Part shown: positions 1,829 through 8,332 of the stretch, one piece after another
How positions within the stretch are numbered: the stretch's first letter is position 1
How the letters are laid out: every line of letters begins with the position of its first letter
NCBI GenBank assembly: GCA_016196885.1
Contig: JACPWU010000056.1
Coordinates: forward strand, 1 to 32,000
Source of the DNA: Chlamydiota bacterium
GTDB taxonomy: Bacteria; Auribacterota; JACPWU01
Direction: 5' to 3'
Length of the DNA stretch: 32,000 nucleotides
Position numbers and translations under genes: made by a program
Notes under the pieces: model-generated
What the model was told of the DNA's origin: nothing
The model's database searches: none
Seen by the model: the letters and a program-made list of their open reading frames with translations, nothing else

Positions 1829-1906
1829 ATGAAATTGCTTCAAAAATGCGTTTCTTTGATCTTAATTCTATCCTTTATTTCCTATGACCTATCCAATAGC
1901 CTTGGG
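1829..1906 (+). other. Sec-type signal peptide or signal anchor of the giant protein (aa 1-26)
   Basis: MKLLQK (basic n-region), CVSLILILSFISY (hydrophobic core), DLSNSLG|Q (small residues at -3/-1). Confidence 0.55.
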
Positions 1907-7900: not shown

Positions 7901-8332
7901 ACTCAATTAGCAAAGATAAGGGAAGATTATCAGACAGGGGATATTTTAGAAGTGGAAAATGGAGAGGATTTAGCAGGTAAGATAGAAAAGGCTAATGATG
8001 GCCCCGTTAATTTAAATAAAAAAAGATATATCGCAGTGATTGGCCCTGCGGAGCATCTTGATCTGTATGGGCGAGATTTGATGAGTCATCGTATTCCAAC
8101 AGCTTTTGGAAACATTGAAGATTTTGGGGCATTGTTGGCAATCGCGCTCTTTTCTACGGATAAGCCTCAGCTTCGAGCCTTCATGAAAGATACGCTAAAA
8201 TTTAGCGACGGACAAATTAACGATCTCCTTGCAGGCGACCACGAGATTCCTCCTTTAAAAATAGCCACTCACCTCGGCCGCGATATTGATGCTGCTATGC
8301 ATGCCGCGGGGATTGCCCAAAAGAATATGTAA
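1829..8332 (+). CDS. Giant 2,167-aa multidomain protein: signal peptide, TraB/GumN-like motifs, NDK-like, Maf, CPBP/Abi intramembrane protease core, unknown C-terminal module
   Basis: Uninterrupted 6,504-nt ORF. GAGGA Shine-Dalgarno lies 9 nt upstream of ATG 1829. Only short spurious ORFs occur in other frames. Domain motifs are listed in the sub-features below. Confidence 0.85.
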   Translation: MKLLQKCVSLILILSFISYDLSNSLGQDVSALNIPNISQPIGNQTVKESIDEKSFWEELRIPSDIGEITDQNLIPNRPSVFILEDIHCNLGVQKNIERILKQLEVESSKLEEKNKSTFRTSNFQPLTSNKPFYVFSEAAAGFMDLSFFTSFPDQKAVATTQAKLLDHQEINGLESFLIHAGPQKAIGWGVEELGTYVDNVKLMKQLMEEKELQSHEWANLEETFKNLRTKIYSKELLELMEKREQYREFKIDLRGYLNQISKIKNQNDKLKIKLEYPTIQKFLELQTLEKKTDASKVESEYLSFLSELEKKLPKEELNEVLRNVLEHRLGRVSYEEHYLFLNKYLEPEDGERVSPLKLRGVGGVMQENNNPSDSPYFKGREKQEEKELYPNLKFFAQQMSLMKQISWEKLDQEIKSLEEELIENLAVTSQAKELLELERDYDVLKRVVAMEGKREDLEVIWSGSYSPLKIRGVRGVIKEEITPSVPLKIRGRKNSQREEYIENFSQALKKLCEQTNLPFESPDFGDIFSIAQKFYAKVLERDQIMYKKTIKMMEERKLKYAALVIGGFHTERFKERLKAANIGYCVIAPRMNKADDRRVYFQKMKEFGSVVSGESKSDIIDLLKKMGKDFLSQAKLSDADFESWRTHSKFYQPIIESLMTENTERGKLLGDPKLLNFVNEIDALIKRGGAFKDLTESYLKKVLGKEDYQEFAQFLKSEKVQSGKTQSKLENPTIPLQLGLATGRAPEEPFQAPAVEVALEPAPAGEMTISPLVSSIMTARARVLSGEGALIDVLTGEEGLRDRQGVEVLIKPEATGCAGAIQDAIDFFHKHGYAMEAVSVRGPEAVKGILPEHYGASVVASIQGRKYLEQDAALTGAFKKNFNVDSLEGLRIFGGQELIEERGYSVDEIERAWDATKVKRLASGIYVCQVTLRGETVYLLNGHVSTLINLFTRPGAVTVAIRAVPRREDATPLLVLRDALGGTSIAEAKEGTLRKRYYTQLDSRPDIQSLHVRYSLTINGYHLSAQYLEALAEVVLWGATLEDQPLAQKLNRAGLSWEEIKELLTDRPKNIFDEVEKSGRSEEETVQIVLRMRAESKVRPLIDRIGKGEDIQSDVEAYLALRVQNPLQAIDFLALLLHLDGEKAQVFLGEVVKKMSEEVQQPSASDQNIVLASKSPRRKEILETMLGDKKEKLKINSPQGRENISPIVPYETAMRAISVEKALEIVEREKTGLIIASDTTMHRNGEVLGKVPNDISLEAYLEKISQFSHQDVRVVSSLVVVDSGTSQVRVGHEEAFIRLRPLGEVLTEAEKSILREIQAPKGHEAELLALQSVDQPTVRDVVTLYHKMGLFKGKAGGFGVQDRLFFLAVQHIRGNPLTIIGLPTEILKRTLTGLNVELPGSLESYTAEIWPSESERERLLPEETQVGQAGENKGSGLQQSVKGTKVYDYLRAHTVPRIPAVILAGIIVGVWEEVWYRNGPLLWGSTCLLAFISVNALFDLHGGDLLPFVKGAWIWLIRFILLTQFFYPWLRYHAKVFAQKHFKVYEWTYPNIHSYLTSAEYKVHYVFGLVMGILMAVSSLLFSESYFVKLFEISPSLWTSIGPSSGMPWIILATTAVLHALNNIADQFGWIYKLSKTFPSLTKLKDWIVMQSTGGGNTLASILEVAKRESGSLQSVKDANSENLQKGALIIRNGEVFVLTGIEETRVDRQVVMLTLTLEPLNGGESRVITLNDEAHAIALKGKGKKRATRTHYYIRQVFGDLYRQLTVTIKVRQFEQWLRGRNVLTSDQTLEGYVANSAKEIPDILDALGEQLENYRSDAKISRQGMRTLIEGLGSLVASQRPQDGGALKTIVIDIKMIQAVAEAGLLPSVRAMRANAQEGALTAGLVWDLAQGAISQEGEDENQVQIAREIQQAVGPAQTGIRSFRQTPIESSQAITRGVGYLILERKWRELKDAIKTIVINRIVKEIKVPIRLYVNAGMLRDPEKAQEVMGQVGELRKLEAGGQPVEIIFFNAKNDPKPLNETQLAKIREDYQTGDILEVENGEDLAGKIEKANDGPVNLNKKRYIAVIGPAEHLDLYGRDLMSHRIPTAFGNIEDFGALLAIALFSTDKPQLRAFMKDTLKFSDGQINDLLAGDHEIPPLKIATHLGRDIDAAMHAAGIAQKNM
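2134..2215 (+). repeat. Heptamer-armed hairpin embedded in frame in the giant ORF
   Basis: The left arm 2134-2162 is (GTTAGAA GTTGAAA GTTCGAA GTTGGAA G). The right arm 2187-2215 is (CTTCCAA CTTCCAA CCTCTAA CTTCTAAC). 25 of 29 positions are complementary by hand alignment, with a 24-nt A-rich loop. Confidence 0.8.
2599..2647 (+). repeat. Seven tandem degenerate heptamers (AAATCAA-type) inside the giant ORF
   Basis: AAATCAA ATATCAA AAATCAA AAATCAA AATGACA AATTAAA AATCAAA, translated as ISKIKNQNDKLKIK. Confidence 0.75.
2888..2975 (+). repeat. REP/MITE-like triple-hairpin element, copy 1, in frame in the giant ORF
   Basis: CCCCTCTTAA-G-TTAAGAGGGG, GGGGAGTTAT..ATAACCCCTCC and CCCCTTA-TTT-TAAGGGG. 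Translated as SPLKLRGVGGVMQENNNPSDSPYFKGREKQ. Confidence 0.75.
3224..3310 (+). repeat. REP/MITE-like triple-hairpin element, copy 2, in frame in the giant ORF
   Basis: Same three hairpins (CCCCTCTTAAGATAAGAGGGG, AGGGGAGTTATT..AATAACCCCCT, CCCCCTTAAAATAAGGGGG). Roughly four-fifths identical to copy 1 by eye and in the same codon phase (SPLKIRGVRGV...). Confidence 0.75.
4241..4948 (+). other. Nucleoside-diphosphate-kinase-like domain with a large internal insertion (aa ~805-1040)
   Basis: VEVLIKPEA (IKPD-type Lys811), PEHYG, LRDALGGTSIAEAKEGTLRKRY (R..GaT...GTiR) and TINGYHLSAQ..ALAEVVLW (NxxHxS with His1022). The order and spacing match NDK catalytic motifs. Confidence 0.55.
5327..6004 (+). 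other. Maf-like nucleoside triphosphate pyrophosphatase domain (aa ~1167-1392)
   Basis: IVLASKSPRRKEIL, VEKALEI, LIIASDTT, EVLGKVP, KAGGFGVQD and IRGNPLTIIGLP match the Maf signature (LASxSPRR, KA, aDT, GKP, aYgIQ, vvGLP). Confidence 0.7.
6191..6718 (+). other. CPBP (CAAX protease / bacteriocin-processing, Abi) intramembrane protease core, 5-6 TM helices (aa ~1455-1630)
   Basis: WEEVWYR (EExxxR, aa 1471-1477), NALFDLH (variant of FxxxH, His1501) and VLHALNN (HxxxN, His1619/Asn1623), all embedded in hydrophobic helices. Confidence 0.65.

What the first reader, a model, noticed from the sequence alone, without database searches (positions are those of the whole stretch)
1829..8332. One 2,167-codon ORF fuses TraB/GumN-like, NDK-like, Maf, CPBP/Abi-protease and an unassignable module
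A single uninterrupted ORF runs from ATG 1829 (GAGGA SD upstream) to TAA 8330-8332. In order it encodes a Sec-type signal peptide, then TraB/PrgY/GumN (Tiki-like) motifs: VFILEDIH at aa 80-87 and ERDQIMY..ALVIGGFHTERFKERLKAANIGYCVI at aa 540-587. A Pro/Ala linker follows (aa ~740-765). Next come an NDK-like domain, a Maf domain, a 5-6 helix CPBP/Abi intramembrane protease core (WEEVWYR, FDLH, HALNN) and ~520 residues with no motif I recognise. I know of no described protein or operon that combines these families. TraB/PrgY and CPBP/Abi proteins are both tied in the literature to peptide pheromone or bacteriocin processing and self-immunity. NDK and Maf act on nucleoside phosphates. The fusion therefore implies coupling between membrane-proximal peptide processing and nucleotide chemistry. 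It sits in an accessory-looking wedge beside an Abi-type toxin remnant and a transposase, so a conflict, defence or host-interaction role is a reasonable but unproven reading.
Basis: partly seen in the sequence, partly recalled or inferred. Interest (0 to 1): 0.85.

Follow-up and report, generated by a model that had tools for sequence, protein, structure and literature searches.

The report
Giant modular envelope protein, swappable cargo
The 2,167-codon gene is real and belongs to an undescribed family of giant, probably exported membrane proteins in groundwater Chlamydiota, which keep the same two ends and swap the enzymes in the middle; this copy carries a Maf nucleotide pyrophosphatase and a divergent NDK-like domain.

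Summary
The ORF (1829-8332, +) is intact. A second public assembly reproduces aa 279-2167 with one nucleotide difference and no indels.

What each module turned out to be:
- **Maf:** confirmed (Pfam E=2e-20; PDB 1EX2 E=5e-8; catalytic motifs intact).
- **NDK-like:** probable but below threshold (Pfam E=0.006 after splicing out an ~80-aa insertion; every PDB hit is an NDK).
- **TraB/Tiki-like N-module:** partly supported. It has an invariant D-x-H…E…E…R…GGFH constellation. The C-half matches a TraB/GumN profile (hhalign 81%, 0 of 200 shuffles reach the score). The N-half and Foldseek give nothing.
- **CPBP:** motif-level only, with no profile hit.
- **C-terminal ~420 aa:** a rare module (7 hits in 1.84 billion representatives), always at the extreme C-terminus of proteins that also carry the N-module.

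The main new point is the family. There are at least 7 paralogs per genome. They share the signal peptide, the N-module and, in most Chlamydiota copies, the C-module, but the middle differs (PPDK/PEP-utilizer/LMW-PTP, an HExxH domain, phosphodiester glycosidase). NDK+Maf is therefore swappable cargo, not a dedicated coupling to peptide processing.

Closest analogues are Omnitrophota giant "Archaeovorin" proteins and MARTX-type multi-effector toxins. Function is inferred, not shown.

The parts
1829..8332 (+). Complete 2,167-codon ORF, stop codon included
   Evidence: A second assembly is identical from window 2662 onward.
1829..1915 (+). N-terminal Sec-type signal or anchor (aa 1-~29: MKLLQK + hydrophobic core + SLGQD)
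   Evidence: Read directly from the sequence. The K-rich n-region, the hydrophobic core and a small-x-(A/G)-Q site recur across family members. Kyte-Doolittle peak at aa 3-21. No dedicated signal-peptide predictor was available.
2006..2437 (+). N-module alpha/beta core, N-half (aa ~60-203), with invariant D85, H87, E137, G189, E191
   Evidence: 17-sequence alignment A1. AF2 pLDDT 85-93, with strands at 66-72, 79-85, 132-136 and 185-190.
2438..3391 (+). ~320-aa all-helical insertion that splits the N-module core (aa ~204-521)
   Evidence: AF2 secondary structure. Conserved across the family.
2888..2968 (+). In-frame ~80-nt triple-hairpin repeat element, copy 1 (encodes SPLKLRGVGGVM...)
   Evidence: Coincides with the pLDDT<50 loop at aa 348-384.
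3224..3303 (+). In-frame triple-hairpin repeat element, copy 2
   Evidence: Coincides with the pLDDT<50 loop at aa 464-493.
3392..3664 (+). N-module core, C-half (aa 522-612), with invariant R541, G566, G567, H569. This is the TraB/GumN-like RD...GGFH...L..G.Y.VI segment.
   Evidence: hhalign against a TraB/GumN profile gives 81% probability, P=1.2e-5. Score 32.6 against a shuffle null of 10.3±2.4, with 0 of 200 shuffles reaching it.
3665..4018 (+). Helical tail of the N-module (aa 613-730). It is also present at the N-termini of the truncated relatives P0019-P0022.
4019..4234 (+). Pro/Ala-rich linker. GC rises here from ~0.39 to ~0.47.
   Evidence: (pLDDT<50)
4235..4963 (+). Divergent NDK-like domain (aa 803-1045) with an ~80-aa insertion (aa ~866-943). 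Proposed residues: K811, R977, T983, R994, N1019, H1022, S1024.
   Evidence: Pfam NDK E=0.22 unspliced and E=0.0061 over profile 5-109 when spliced. Two collinear weak NDK matches, and the spliced query hits only NDKs in PDB. Residue assignments are by inspection.
4964..5308 (+). Helical spacer (aa 1046-1160)
   Evidence: Matches only designed helical-repeat proteins.
5321..6013 (+). Maf nucleotide pyrophosphatase domain (aa 1165-1395) with an internal insertion. The SKSPRR, SDTT...GK and KAGGFGVQD motifs are intact.
   Evidence: Pfam PF02545 E=2e-20 to 3e-22, above the gathering score. NCBIfam Maf models hit, below their equivalog cut-offs. PDB 1EX2 E=5.4e-8, with both halves aligned.
6182..6748 (+). 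Polytopic TM block (about 5 hydrophobic helices, aa ~1452-1640) with CPBP-like motifs EEVWYR, LFDLH and HALNN. 55% identical to paralog P0002.
   Evidence: CPBP tests: negative; motif-level only.
7073..8329 (+). Family-specific C-terminal module (aa ~1749-2167): a helical domain plus a Rossmann-like alpha/beta domain, ending in ...AQKNM
   Evidence: Only 7 hits in 1.84e9 representatives, all at the extreme C-terminus. The HMM also finds it at the ends of P0005 and P0006. AF2 pLDDT 65-84. Faint Foldseek similarity to the eIF2B / ribose-1,5-bisphosphate isomerase / M1P-isomerase family, E 0.008-0.1.
8339..9489 (-). Neighbour, not part of the protein: Y1 (IS200-like) transposase with a DnaA_C-type HTH, bracketed by perfect 29-nt inverted repeats. 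It starts 7 nt after the ORF stop.
   Evidence: I5
754..1631 (+). Neighbour, not part of the protein: AbiEii toxin gene split into two ORFs

Best explanation
The ORF is one genuine gene. It encodes a member of a lineage-expanded, undescribed family of giant modular envelope proteins found in groundwater Chlamydiota MAGs.

**Family plan**
- A Sec-type N-terminal signal or anchor comes first.
- Next is a ~600-750-aa N-module. Its alpha/beta core carries an invariant D-x-H...E...E...R...GGFH constellation and is split by a ~320-aa helical insertion. It is most likely a remote TIKI/TraB/GumN-type hydrolase.
- A variable central cargo follows.
- In most Chlamydiota members there is also a membrane-spanning block and a ~200-420-aa C-terminal helical plus Rossmann-like module.

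**This paralog**
The cargo is a divergent NDK-like domain plus a Maf nucleoside-triphosphate pyrophosphatase that looks catalytically intact.

**Proposed working (inferred, not shown)**
- The signal peptide drives export of the N-module and cargo across the inner membrane.
- The TM block tethers the protein to the membrane.
- The cargo enzymes act on nucleotides outside the cytoplasm. These could be periplasmic or host-derived NTPs, which chlamydiae are known to import.
- The conserved N-module hydrolase, and possibly the motif-bearing TM block, process the protein or a partner.
- Cargo is exchanged between paralogs by recombination between the conserved ends.

**Shown:** ORF integrity, Maf, the family architecture, cargo variability and the rarity of the C-module.
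**Inferred:** topology, enzymatic activity of the NDK-like and N-modules, and any host-directed role.
For: - **ORF integrity:**
- **Shared ends, variable middle:** 16 other giant proteins (1,222-3,624 aa) share only the N-terminal ~600-800 aa. P0002 also shares the TM block (55% identity) and the C-module (77%) but not the middle.
- **C-module:** 7 hits in 1.84e9 representatives. All are C-terminal and all are in proteins that begin with N-module sequence. An HMM adds P0005 and P0006.
- **Paralog count:** at least 7 paralogs carry HYS07 locus tags.
- **Cargo diversity:** PPDK_N + PEP-utilizers + LMWPc in P0022. Sigma70, Metallophos, PEP-utilizers_C + HEAT, FHA and HTH_8 in others. 'Phosphodiester glycosidase' in P0019. 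HEGYH in P0002.
- **N-module:**
  - The invariant residues are D85, H87, E137, E191, R541 and H569.
  - The AF2 core is confident, pLDDT 85-93.
  - hhalign of the C-half against TraB/GumN gives 81%, cross-controls are null, and 0 of 200 shuffles reach the score.
  - The TIKI catalytic signature is E-x-H...E...H (PMC6254334).
- **Maf:**
- **NDK-like:**
- **Recent exchange between paralogs:** the conserved ends are 80-90% identical at DNA level, and GC shifts at the N-module/cargo boundary.
- **Precedent:** signal-peptide plus TM giant proteins with housekeeping-type enzyme domains, including PPDK, and N-terminal peptidases are described in Omnitrophota (10.1101/2023.11.21.568195; 10.64898/2026.06.07.730766).
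Against: - **N-half of the core:** it does not align to TraB. Pfam gives only 1 of 17 members a ChaN hit, at E=0.09.
- **NDK:** the match stays below Pfam's gathering score (16.9 against 27 bits), and the profile alignment stops before the catalytic His.
- **Topology is unresolved:** charged residues before TM1 (K, K, R, H, R) argue for a cytoplasmic Maf side, whereas the N-terminal signal argues for export. No topology predictor was available.
- **Biochemical oddity:** nucleotide enzymes outside the cytoplasm are unusual.
- **Missing data:** there is no expression, proteomic or biochemical evidence. The first 278 codons lack a second assembly.
Confidence: 0.5

Rival explanations
1. Cytoplasm-facing scaffold. 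The N-terminal hydrophobic helix and the TM block only tether the protein to the inner membrane. The NDK-like and Maf domains then act on cytoplasmic nucleotides, for example as membrane-proximal house-cleaning or pool balancing next to nucleotide transporters.
For: - NDK and Maf substrates are cytoplasmic.
- The segment just before TM1 is strongly positive (KGTKVYDYLRAHTVPR), which fits the positive-inside rule.
- 46% of Omnitrophota long proteins are predicted TM-only, with their bulk on the cytoplasmic face.
Against: - The N-terminus has the classic layout of a signal: positive n-region, hydrophobic core and a small-residue-Q site. This layout is conserved family-wide.
- No hydrophobic segment lies between aa 30 and 1450 that could bring the cargo back inside.
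Confidence: 0.2
2. Polymorphic toxin or contact-dependent effector for inter-bacterial conflict. The conserved N-terminal domain would be a trafficking or processing domain, and the variable domains would be toxins that deplete nucleotides in a target cell.
For: - The family has a conserved N-end with variable downstream modules and many paralogs.
- One paralog has a weak Hint/intein-type hit (P0003, E=6.5e-5).
- An AbiEii remnant and a transposase lie next to the gene.
Against: - The variable part is internal and the extreme C-terminus is conserved. Polymorphic toxins show the opposite pattern.
- No small immunity-like gene follows. Next to the gene is a transposase on the other strand, then yebC-ruvCAB. 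P0002 has a different, housekeeping neighbourhood.
- No PADLOC or toxin family search was run on it.
- The cargo consists of housekeeping-type enzymes.
Confidence: 0.1
3. The protein would be a dedicated fusion that couples TraB/PrgY-type and CPBP/Abi-type peptide-pheromone or bacteriocin processing and self-immunity with nucleotide chemistry.
For: - The N-module is TraB-like at motif level and in its C-half profile.
- The CPBP motifs EE..R and H...N align at the correct profile positions.
Against: - NDK and Maf are absent from the paralog that shares both the N-module and the TM block, so the combination is not a conserved functional unit.
- CPBP is unsupported by any curated model.
- The spacing between motif 2 and motif 3 is ~117 aa, against ~40 aa in eight annotated CPBPs.
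- No bacteriocin, pheromone or transporter genes lie nearby.
Confidence: 0.07
4. Artefact. The ORF would be an assembly chimera, or separate genes fused by sequencing or assembly error.
For: - The public contig breaks at aa 279, inside the paralog-repeated N-module.
- The full-length product is not recorded elsewhere.
- Composition is mosaic across the ORF.
Against: - The second assembly is identical over 13.7 kb with no indels, and it spans the N-module/cargo, cargo/TM and TM/C-module junctions.
- Paralogs independently show the same end-to-end architecture.
- The overlap already covers aa 279-760 of the N-module.
Confidence: 0.04

Closest known systems
Omnitrophota giant proteins ('Archaeovorins'; West-Roberts et al. 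2023 preprint, 10.1101/2023.11.21.568195; also 10.64898/2026.06.07.730766)
   Same: - PVC-superphylum, uncultured groundwater bacteria.
- Signal peptide plus TM helices.
- Mostly unannotatable sequence interspersed with divergent housekeeping-type enzyme domains. PPDK and HEAT occur in Archaeovorins and also in family members P0022, P0014 and P0017.
- A putative peptidase sits next to the N-terminal signal.

   Different: - Ten to seventy times smaller (2-6 kaa against 30-147 kaa).
- No SecA_DEAD, C39 or S8 domains were detected.
- Defined here by a specific N-module and C-module that those papers do not describe. The terms TraB, Tiki and Maf are absent as domains in them.
- Whether Archaeovorin N-termini contain this N-module was not testable.
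MARTX multi-effector toxins (e.g. V. vulnificus RtxA1, with its RRSP TIKI-fold effector; PMC6254334)
   Same: - Conserved N- and C-terminal regions flank a recombinationally variable array of enzyme modules.
- A TIKI-superfamily hydrolase domain with a 2His/2Glu-type signature occurs in the same polypeptide.
   Different: - No RTX or glycine-rich repeats, no cysteine protease domain and no T1SS genes were seen.
- Here the TIKI-like domain is the conserved N-terminal module. In MARTX it is one of the variable effectors.
- An internal polytopic TM block is present.
TraB/PrgY/GumN/TIKI/ChaN/erythromycin-esterase superfamily
   Same: - The order of conserved residues matches: [D/E]-x-H after a beta-strand, E after the next strand, a further E, R(D/N) in a helix, then G-x-x-H after a strand followed by L...G..V.
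- The C-half has profile-profile similarity.
- A helical insertion sits at the same place in the core.
   Different: - D-x-H replaces G-[ST]-x-H.
- The helical insertion is ~320 aa.
- The N-half has no detectable profile similarity.
- No Pfam or PDB-sequence hit and no Foldseek hit.
Stand-alone Maf (B. subtilis Maf 1EX2, E. coli YhdE/YceF) and NDK
   Same: - Maf: significant sequence match and intact SPRR, DT and GxYGIQ-type motifs.
- NDK: collinear weak matches, plus the KP, R..G.T......GT.R and N..H.S motifs.
   Different: - Both domains are embedded in a 2,167-aa protein that is predicted to be exported.
- Both carry insertions: ~40 aa in Maf, and ~80 aa plus ~14 aa in NDK.
- The NDK match is below the family threshold.

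Membership tests
Maf (PF02545) nucleotide pyrophosphatase | Score above the Pfam gathering threshold | tested here: met
   73.6-79.6 bits against a cut-off of 27; E=2e-20 to 3e-22. PDB Maf 1EX2 E=5.4e-8.
Maf (PF02545) nucleotide pyrophosphatase | Catalytic and binding motifs (S-x-S-P-R-R, D-T, K, G-x-Y/F-G-I/V-Q) | tested here: met
   LASKSPRRKE, IASDTTM...LGK and KAGGFGVQD align to the 1EX2 motifs. Activity itself was not tested.
Nucleoside diphosphate kinase (PF00334) | Score above the Pfam gathering threshold | tested here: not met
   11.8 bits (E=0.22) unspliced and 16.9 bits (E=0.0061) spliced, against a cut-off of 27.
Nucleoside diphosphate kinase (PF00334) | Collinear similarity over the fold, and specificity of the hits | tested here: met
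   The spliced query covers profile positions 5-109 of 135. All 4 PDB hits are NDKs (E 0.016-0.67). In the unspliced query, two separate collinear NDK matches appear.
Nucleoside diphosphate kinase (PF00334) | Catalytic His in an N-x-x-H-x-S context, plus the K, R, T, R nucleotide-binding residues | tested here: inconclusive
   K811, R977, T983, R994 and N1019-G-Y-H1022-L-S1024 are present by inspection. The HMM alignments stop before the His, because of a ~14-aa insertion.
TIKI/TraB/GumN/ChaN/Ere superfamily | 2His/2Glu-type catalytic constellation in the canonical order (E-x-H ... E ... H; PMC6254334) | tested here: met
   D85-x-H87, E137 and H569, plus E191 and R541, are invariant in 17 sequences down to 20% identity. 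Asp replaces the first Glu. Spatial clustering was not checked, because no coordinates were accessible.
TIKI/TraB/GumN/ChaN/Ere superfamily | Significant profile similarity to family members | tested here: inconclusive
   - C-half: hhalign 81% probability, P=1.2e-5; score 32.6 against a null of 10.3±2.4, with 0 of 200 shuffles reaching it.
- Full local alignment: 27% probability.
- N-half: no match.
- Pfam: 1 of 17 members hits ChaN at E=0.09.
- PDB profile searches: negative.
TIKI/TraB/GumN/ChaN/Ere superfamily | Parallel beta-sheet core flanked by helices that superposes on solved TIKI-fold structures | tested here: inconclusive
CPBP / Rce1-like intramembrane protease (PF02517) | Match to curated family models | tested here: not met
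   No PF02517 or NCBIfam CPBP hit at E<=10 for the whole protein, the segment or a spliced core. No PDB sequence hit. No paralog hits it either.
CPBP / Rce1-like intramembrane protease (PF02517) | Three motifs (EExxxR, FxxxH, HxxxN) in order in TM helices with canonical spacing | tested here: inconclusive
   - Motif 1: EEVWYR is present, and EEGRYR in P0002.
- Motif 3: HALNN is present in both.
- Motif 2: imperfect (LFDLH, with Leu at the Phe position; not conserved in P0002).
- Spacing: ~117 aa between motifs 2 and 3, against ~40 aa in eight annotated CPBPs.
- hhalign: only the motif 1 and motif 3 segments align (scores 22.2 and 21.1; probability <=17%). The shuffle null maximum is 19.4 and the reversed control scores 17.1.
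Polymorphic toxin systems | Variable extreme C-terminal toxin domain followed by a cognate immunity gene | tested here: not met
   The C-terminus is the conserved part. The downstream gene is a transposase on the opposite strand, followed by housekeeping genes.
MARTX toxins | RTX/A-B-C repeats, a cysteine protease domain and an adjacent T1SS | tested here: not met
   None detected by Pfam or NCBIfam in the protein or its neighbours.
Omnitrophota Archaeovorin-type giant proteins | Signal peptide or TM helices, plus divergent housekeeping-enzyme domains in a largely unannotatable giant ORF | tested here: met
   described.
Omnitrophota Archaeovorin-type giant proteins | SecA_DEAD-like domain, length >10-30 kaa, and sequence homology to described members | tested here: not met
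   No SecA domain.

The most novel reading that the evidence does not exclude
The conserved N-module (a TIKI-like hydrolase next to the signal peptide), together with the TM block and the C-terminal helical plus Rossmann-like module, would constitute a previously unrecognised self-contained delivery and processing chassis. It would be functionally analogous to the MARTX scaffold. It would export, anchor and perhaps proteolytically release interchangeable housekeeping-type enzymes (NDK/Maf, PPDK, phosphatases, glycosidases) to manipulate a host's or prey's metabolite pools. The same N-module might be the unannotated N-terminal region of the far larger Omnitrophota giants.
Probability: 0.15. Interest if true: 0.8.

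Novelty: new variant of a known kind. Interest (0 to 1): 0.55.

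Why it matters
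- **A tractable entry point.** Giant signal-peptide plus TM proteins that carry 'housekeeping' enzyme domains are a recently recognised and unexplained feature of uncultured PVC bacteria. This family is a compact version (2-6 kaa), with clear module boundaries, many paralogs and two conserved end-modules that can be expressed and tested.
- **A new TIKI branch.** If the N-module is an active TIKI-type hydrolase, it adds a bacterial branch to a superfamily that includes Wnt-cleaving TIKI, PrgY and the Ras-cleaving MARTX effector RRSP.
- **Possible host manipulation.** If the NDK-like and Maf cargo is truly extracytoplasmic, it would point to manipulation of host-derived nucleotide pools by environmental chlamydiae.
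- **A caution on annotation.** The public record labels the gene simply 'Maf family protein'.

Tried and rejected
- **Pfam and NCBIfam** on the whole protein and five segments found only Maf.
- **N-module against PDB:** profile searches of the full module and of the spliced core gave only spurious calmodulin and IFIT5 matches.
- **Foldseek** of the N-module against PDB and BFVD returned nothing significant.
- **hhalign** of the N-module against single YbaP gave no signal.
- **Homolog searches:**
  - The search for homologous proteins with internal segments (aa 1440-2167 and 795-1050) returned nothing, not even the identical P0001.
  - These negatives are therefore uninformative.
- **Collection scans:**
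  - With A4, the genome collection gave one 1.3-kb contig binned to Omnitrophota.
  - The metagenome collection gave none.
- **C-module** against PDB sequences gave nothing, as a single sequence or as a profile.
- **TM block:** the AF2 model was too poor (pLDDT<50) to test CPBP by structure.
- **Promoter and terminator scan** was at background level.
- **Metallophosphoesterase reading of the N-module** (DxH...GGFH) was considered and rejected:
  - The model has a small parallel-sheet alpha/beta core.
  - There is no PF00149 hit.
  - The profile match is to TraB.
- **Beta-barrel or autotransporter reading of the C-module** was rejected, because the model is helical plus Rossmann-like.

Full report
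**1. Observation**

The window holds a single uninterrupted ORF from ATG 1829 to TAA 8330-8332, 2,167 codons. GAGGA lies about 9 nt upstream of the ATG.

The public contig JACOUD010000042.1 (GCA_016178005.1, 'MAG: Chlamydiae bacterium') begins inside the gene at aa 279. It matches window 2662-16332 at 99.993%, with one mismatch and no gaps. The junctions N-module/cargo, cargo/TM and TM/C-terminus therefore exist in two assemblies. The first 278 codons are supported by this window alone, and the full-length product is not on record elsewhere. The public copy is annotated only as 'Maf family protein, partial'.

**2. Surroundings**

- Upstream lies an AbiEii toxin gene split into two ORFs (754-1020 and 1017-1631).
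- Seven nucleotides after the stop, a 1,151-bp unit begins. Perfect 29-nt inverted repeats (8339-8367 and 9461-9489) bracket a Y1/IS200-like transposase with a DnaA_C-type HTH.
- After that come yebC, ruvC, ruvA, ruvB, spoIID and queA.
- The closest paralog (P0002, GCA_016178055.1) sits among unrelated housekeeping genes.
- No operon partner is conserved, and there is no immunity-like gene.

**3.

| Module | Residues | Result | Key calls |
|---|---|---|---|
| Maf | 1165-1395 | Confirmed | 5, 6, 7, 92 |
| NDK-like | 803-1045 | Probable, below threshold | 7, 16, 56, 63, 64 |
| TraB/Tiki-like N-module | ~55-730 | Partly supported | 13, 27, 30, 36, 37, 40-53, 75, 115 |
| CPBP-like TM block | ~1452-1640 | Motif-level only | 5-7, 26, 56, 63, 73, 93, 100-111, 116 |
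| C-terminal module | ~1749-2167 | Rare, family-specific, fold unassigned | 17, 54, 57, 61, 73, 76, 84 |

*Maf.*
- Pfam PF02545 scores E=2e-20 on the whole protein and 3e-22 on the segment, well above the gathering score.
- NCBIfam Maf models hit but stay below their equivalog cut-offs.
- B. subtilis Maf (1EX2) matches at E=5.4e-8. Both the N-terminal half (SPRR, DT, K) and the C-terminal half (KAGxxGxQ) align around an insertion.

*NDK-like.*
- Unspliced, Pfam NDK reaches only E=0.22.
- A PDB sequence search gave two separate, collinear, weak NDK matches: aa 804-855 against NDK residues 7-55, and aa 970-1004 against NDK residues 79-113.
- After removing the ~80-aa insertion between them, Pfam NDK rises to E=0.0061 over profile positions 5-109 of 135. 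This is still below the 27-bit threshold.
- The only four PDB hits for the spliced query are NDKs.
- By inspection, K811 (IKPEA), R977/T983/R994 (LRDALGGTSIAEAKEGTLR) and N1019-G-Y-H1022-L-S1024 reproduce the NDK nucleotide-binding and phospho-histidine motifs.
- The profile alignments do not reach the His.
- I regard an NDK-derived fold as probable and activity as unproven.

*N-module: conserved residues and model.*
- A 17-sequence alignment, reaching down to 20% identity, leaves D85, H87, E137, G189, E191, R541, G566, G567 and H569 invariant.
- AF2 gives a confident alpha/beta core (pLDDT 85-93).
- Each invariant residue sits at a strand end or helix start. The order is strand-DxH-helix-strand-E, then strand-G.E, then helix(RD)-strand-GGFH-helix-strand.
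- A ~320-aa helical insertion interrupts the core.

*N-module: comparison with the TIKI superfamily.*
- The superfamily signature described for RRSP and Ere is E-x-H...E...H on a parallel sheet flanked by helices (PMC6254334).
- Curated models do not see the similarity. Pfam gives 1 of 17 spliced cores a ChaN hit at E=0.09. PDB profile searches are negative. Foldseek against PDB is empty.
- I built an eight-member TraB/GumN alignment from independently annotated plasmid genes plus E. coli YbaP.
- hhalign places our FY..vl.RD...(~20)...GGFH..G...L...G.Y.VI exactly on TraB's RN...VGALHL.G...L...G..V. The full alignments give P=7e-4. The C-halves give 81% probability, P=1.2e-5. Cross-controls are null.
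- The score is 32.6 against 10.3±2.4 (maximum 20.3) in 200 column shuffles.
- The N-halves do not align.
- The verdict is a probable remote member of the TIKI/TraB superfamily. It is not proven, and D-x-H replaces G-[ST]-x-H.

*CPBP: what fits.*
- The block has about five hydrophobic helices.
- EEVWYR and HALNN match CPBP motifs 1 and 3 and are conserved in P0002.

*CPBP: what does not fit.*
- Motif 2 is imperfect and is not conserved in P0002.
- The gap between motifs 2 and 3 is ~117 aa, against ~40 aa in eight annotated CPBPs.
- No Pfam, NCBIfam or PDB-sequence hit appears under any treatment.
- The AF2 model is unusable there (pLDDT 30-50).
- hhalign against the CPBP alignment aligns only the two motif segments, at the right profile positions and in order. 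Probability is at most 17%.
- Their scores (22.2 and 21.1) exceed all 150 column shuffles (maximum 19.4) but only modestly exceed a reversed-sequence control (17.1).
It remains a motif-level lead.

*C-terminal module.*
- An exhaustive HMMER scan of 1.84 billion representatives found seven proteins.
- In each, the match is at the extreme C-terminus.
- Each long hit (P0019 at >=5,912 aa, P0020, P0021, P0022) starts with N-module sequence, truncated at contig edges.
- An HMM of the module also detects it at the ends of paralogs P0005 and P0006 (E about 1e-12 to 1e-14).
- The termini read ...KNM, KSM, NSM or HSM.
- AF2 with seven sequences gives pLDDT 65-84 for a helical domain followed by a Rossmann-like beta/alpha domain.
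- Foldseek gives only faint but recurrent similarity to the eIF2B / ribose-1,5-bisphosphate isomerase / methylthioribose-1-phosphate isomerase family. E is 0.008-0.1, probability 0.85-0.93, and global superposition is poor.
- I do not assign it to any family.

**4. What it is**

The decisive result is the family.
- Sixteen other giant proteins (1,222-3,624 aa) share only the N-terminal 600-800 aa with the query.
- P0002 additionally shares the TM block (55% identity) and the C-module (77%). Between them it has an unrelated ~570-aa segment with its own TM helices and an HEGYH motif.
- Other members carry the following:
  - PPDK_N, a PEP-utilizer mobile domain and LMW-PTP in P0022.
  - PEP-utilizers_C and HEAT, Metallophos, sigma-70 regions, FHA or HTH_8 in others.
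  - A domain that NCBI names phosphodiester glycosidase in P0019.
- At least seven paralogs bear locus tags of one MAG, HYS07.
- The conserved ends of paralogs are 80-90% identical at DNA level.
- GC rises from ~0.39 to ~0.47 at the N-module/cargo boundary.

The gene is therefore one copy of a lineage-expanded family with fixed ends and a recombinationally variable middle. NDK-like plus Maf is this copy's cargo.

**5. How it most likely works (inference)**

- The N-terminus has a positive n-region, a hydrophobic core and a small-residue-Q site, conserved family-wide.
- No other hydrophobic segment occurs before aa 1452.
- The simplest topology is therefore Sec export of the N-module and cargo, with tethering by the TM block.
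- The cargo would then meet nucleotides outside the cytoplasm. For chlamydiae, which import host NTPs (established knowledge), that is not absurd.
- The positive cluster just before TM1 argues the other way, so I keep a cytoplasm-facing alternative at 0.2.
- The invariant acid/His constellation makes the N-module a probable hydrolase. Whether it processes the protein itself or another substrate is unknown.

**6. Comparison with known systems**

The nearest described phenomenon is the Omnitrophota giant proteins. These combine signal peptide and TM architectures, N-terminal peptidases near the signal, HEAT repeats, PPDK and glycolytic-enzyme domains. This family is far smaller. It lacks SecA_DEAD, C39 and S8 domains and is defined by end-modules that those papers do not mention. 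The one hit in the species-representative genome collection is a 1.3-kb contig binned to Omnitrophota.

Architecturally the family also resembles MARTX toxins, which have conserved ends and a variable effector array that includes a TIKI-fold effector. It has none of the MARTX defining repeats, CPD or T1SS. It fails the polymorphic-toxin test because the C-terminus is conserved and no immunity gene follows.

**7. Verdict**

This is a new variant of a poorly understood kind. Interest is moderate to high, because the family is compact and experimentally tractable and both end-modules are essentially uncharacterised.

Noticed in passing
window 2888-2968 and 3224-3303 (inside the ORF); also L001 9183-9205 and L002 227-249, 563-585: An ~80-nt element made of three hairpins is inserted twice, in frame, in the N-module's helical insertion. 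DNA fold z-scores are -4.0 and -5.5. It encodes the SPLKLRGVGGVM... and SPLKIRGVRGVI... loops, which AF2 models at pLDDT<50. Its 23-nt core occurs only inside the giant genes among the sequences held here. Paralogs carry other in-frame repeat peptides (SSSLQPRASSQ, LEARGSKLEAK, VIASEAKQSQ). This behaviour resembles the Rickettsia palindromic elements that colonise coding sequence.
   Followed up: partly
window 8339-9489: A Y1 (IS200-like) transposase fused to a DnaA_C-type HTH (8418-9419, minus strand) is bracketed by perfect 29-nt inverted repeats (TAGGGGACGGAGTTAACTTATTAACTTAA). The unit begins 7 nt after the giant ORF's stop. It could be a RAYT/REPIN-like unit or a small IS. The identical arrangement is present in the second assembly.
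   Followed up: partly
window 754-1631: An AbiEii toxin gene is split into two ORFs that overlap by 4 nt. They match Pfam profile positions 3-42 and 95-229. No recognisable AbiEi antitoxin was found upstream. It is probably a pseudogene.
   Followed up: no
window 10340-10427, 10904-10992, 12661-12751, 14925-15013, 24603-24654: Intergenic palindromic repeat clusters rich in CAGAAGT/ACTTCTG or GAAAAGT units follow several housekeeping genes (yebC, ruvC, ruvB, queA and others). They may be REP-like elements or terminators.
   Followed up: no
window 23297-23321 and 26130-26154: A 25-nt inverted repeat, 96% complementary (GCCCCAT.AATGGGGC core), flanks a 2.8-kb stretch that contains ORFs 23315-26004.
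   Followed up: no
window ~4424-4660 (aa ~866-943): The ~80-aa insertion inside the NDK-like domain shows weak ubiquitin-like similarity. RIFGGQELIEERGYSVDEI resembles ubiquitin's LIFAGKQLEDGRTLSDYNI. Polyubiquitin chains score E=0.001-0.3, with no single stretch passing. It may be a beta-grasp insert or may be chance.
   Followed up: no
P0020 aa 595-635; P0002 aa ~1215-1225 (L001): Relative P0020 has a second, internal RN...GAAH TraB-like motif in its cargo (DUF5694 E=0.17; family C-half HMM E=0.09). Paralog P0002's cargo contains an HEGYH (HExxH) metalloprotease-type motif.
   Followed up: partly
tool behaviour: the search for homologous proteins, when queried with internal segments of the protein, did not return even the 100%-identical P0001. 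Negative results from that tool for internal or C-terminal modules of long proteins should not be read as absence.
   Followed up: yes
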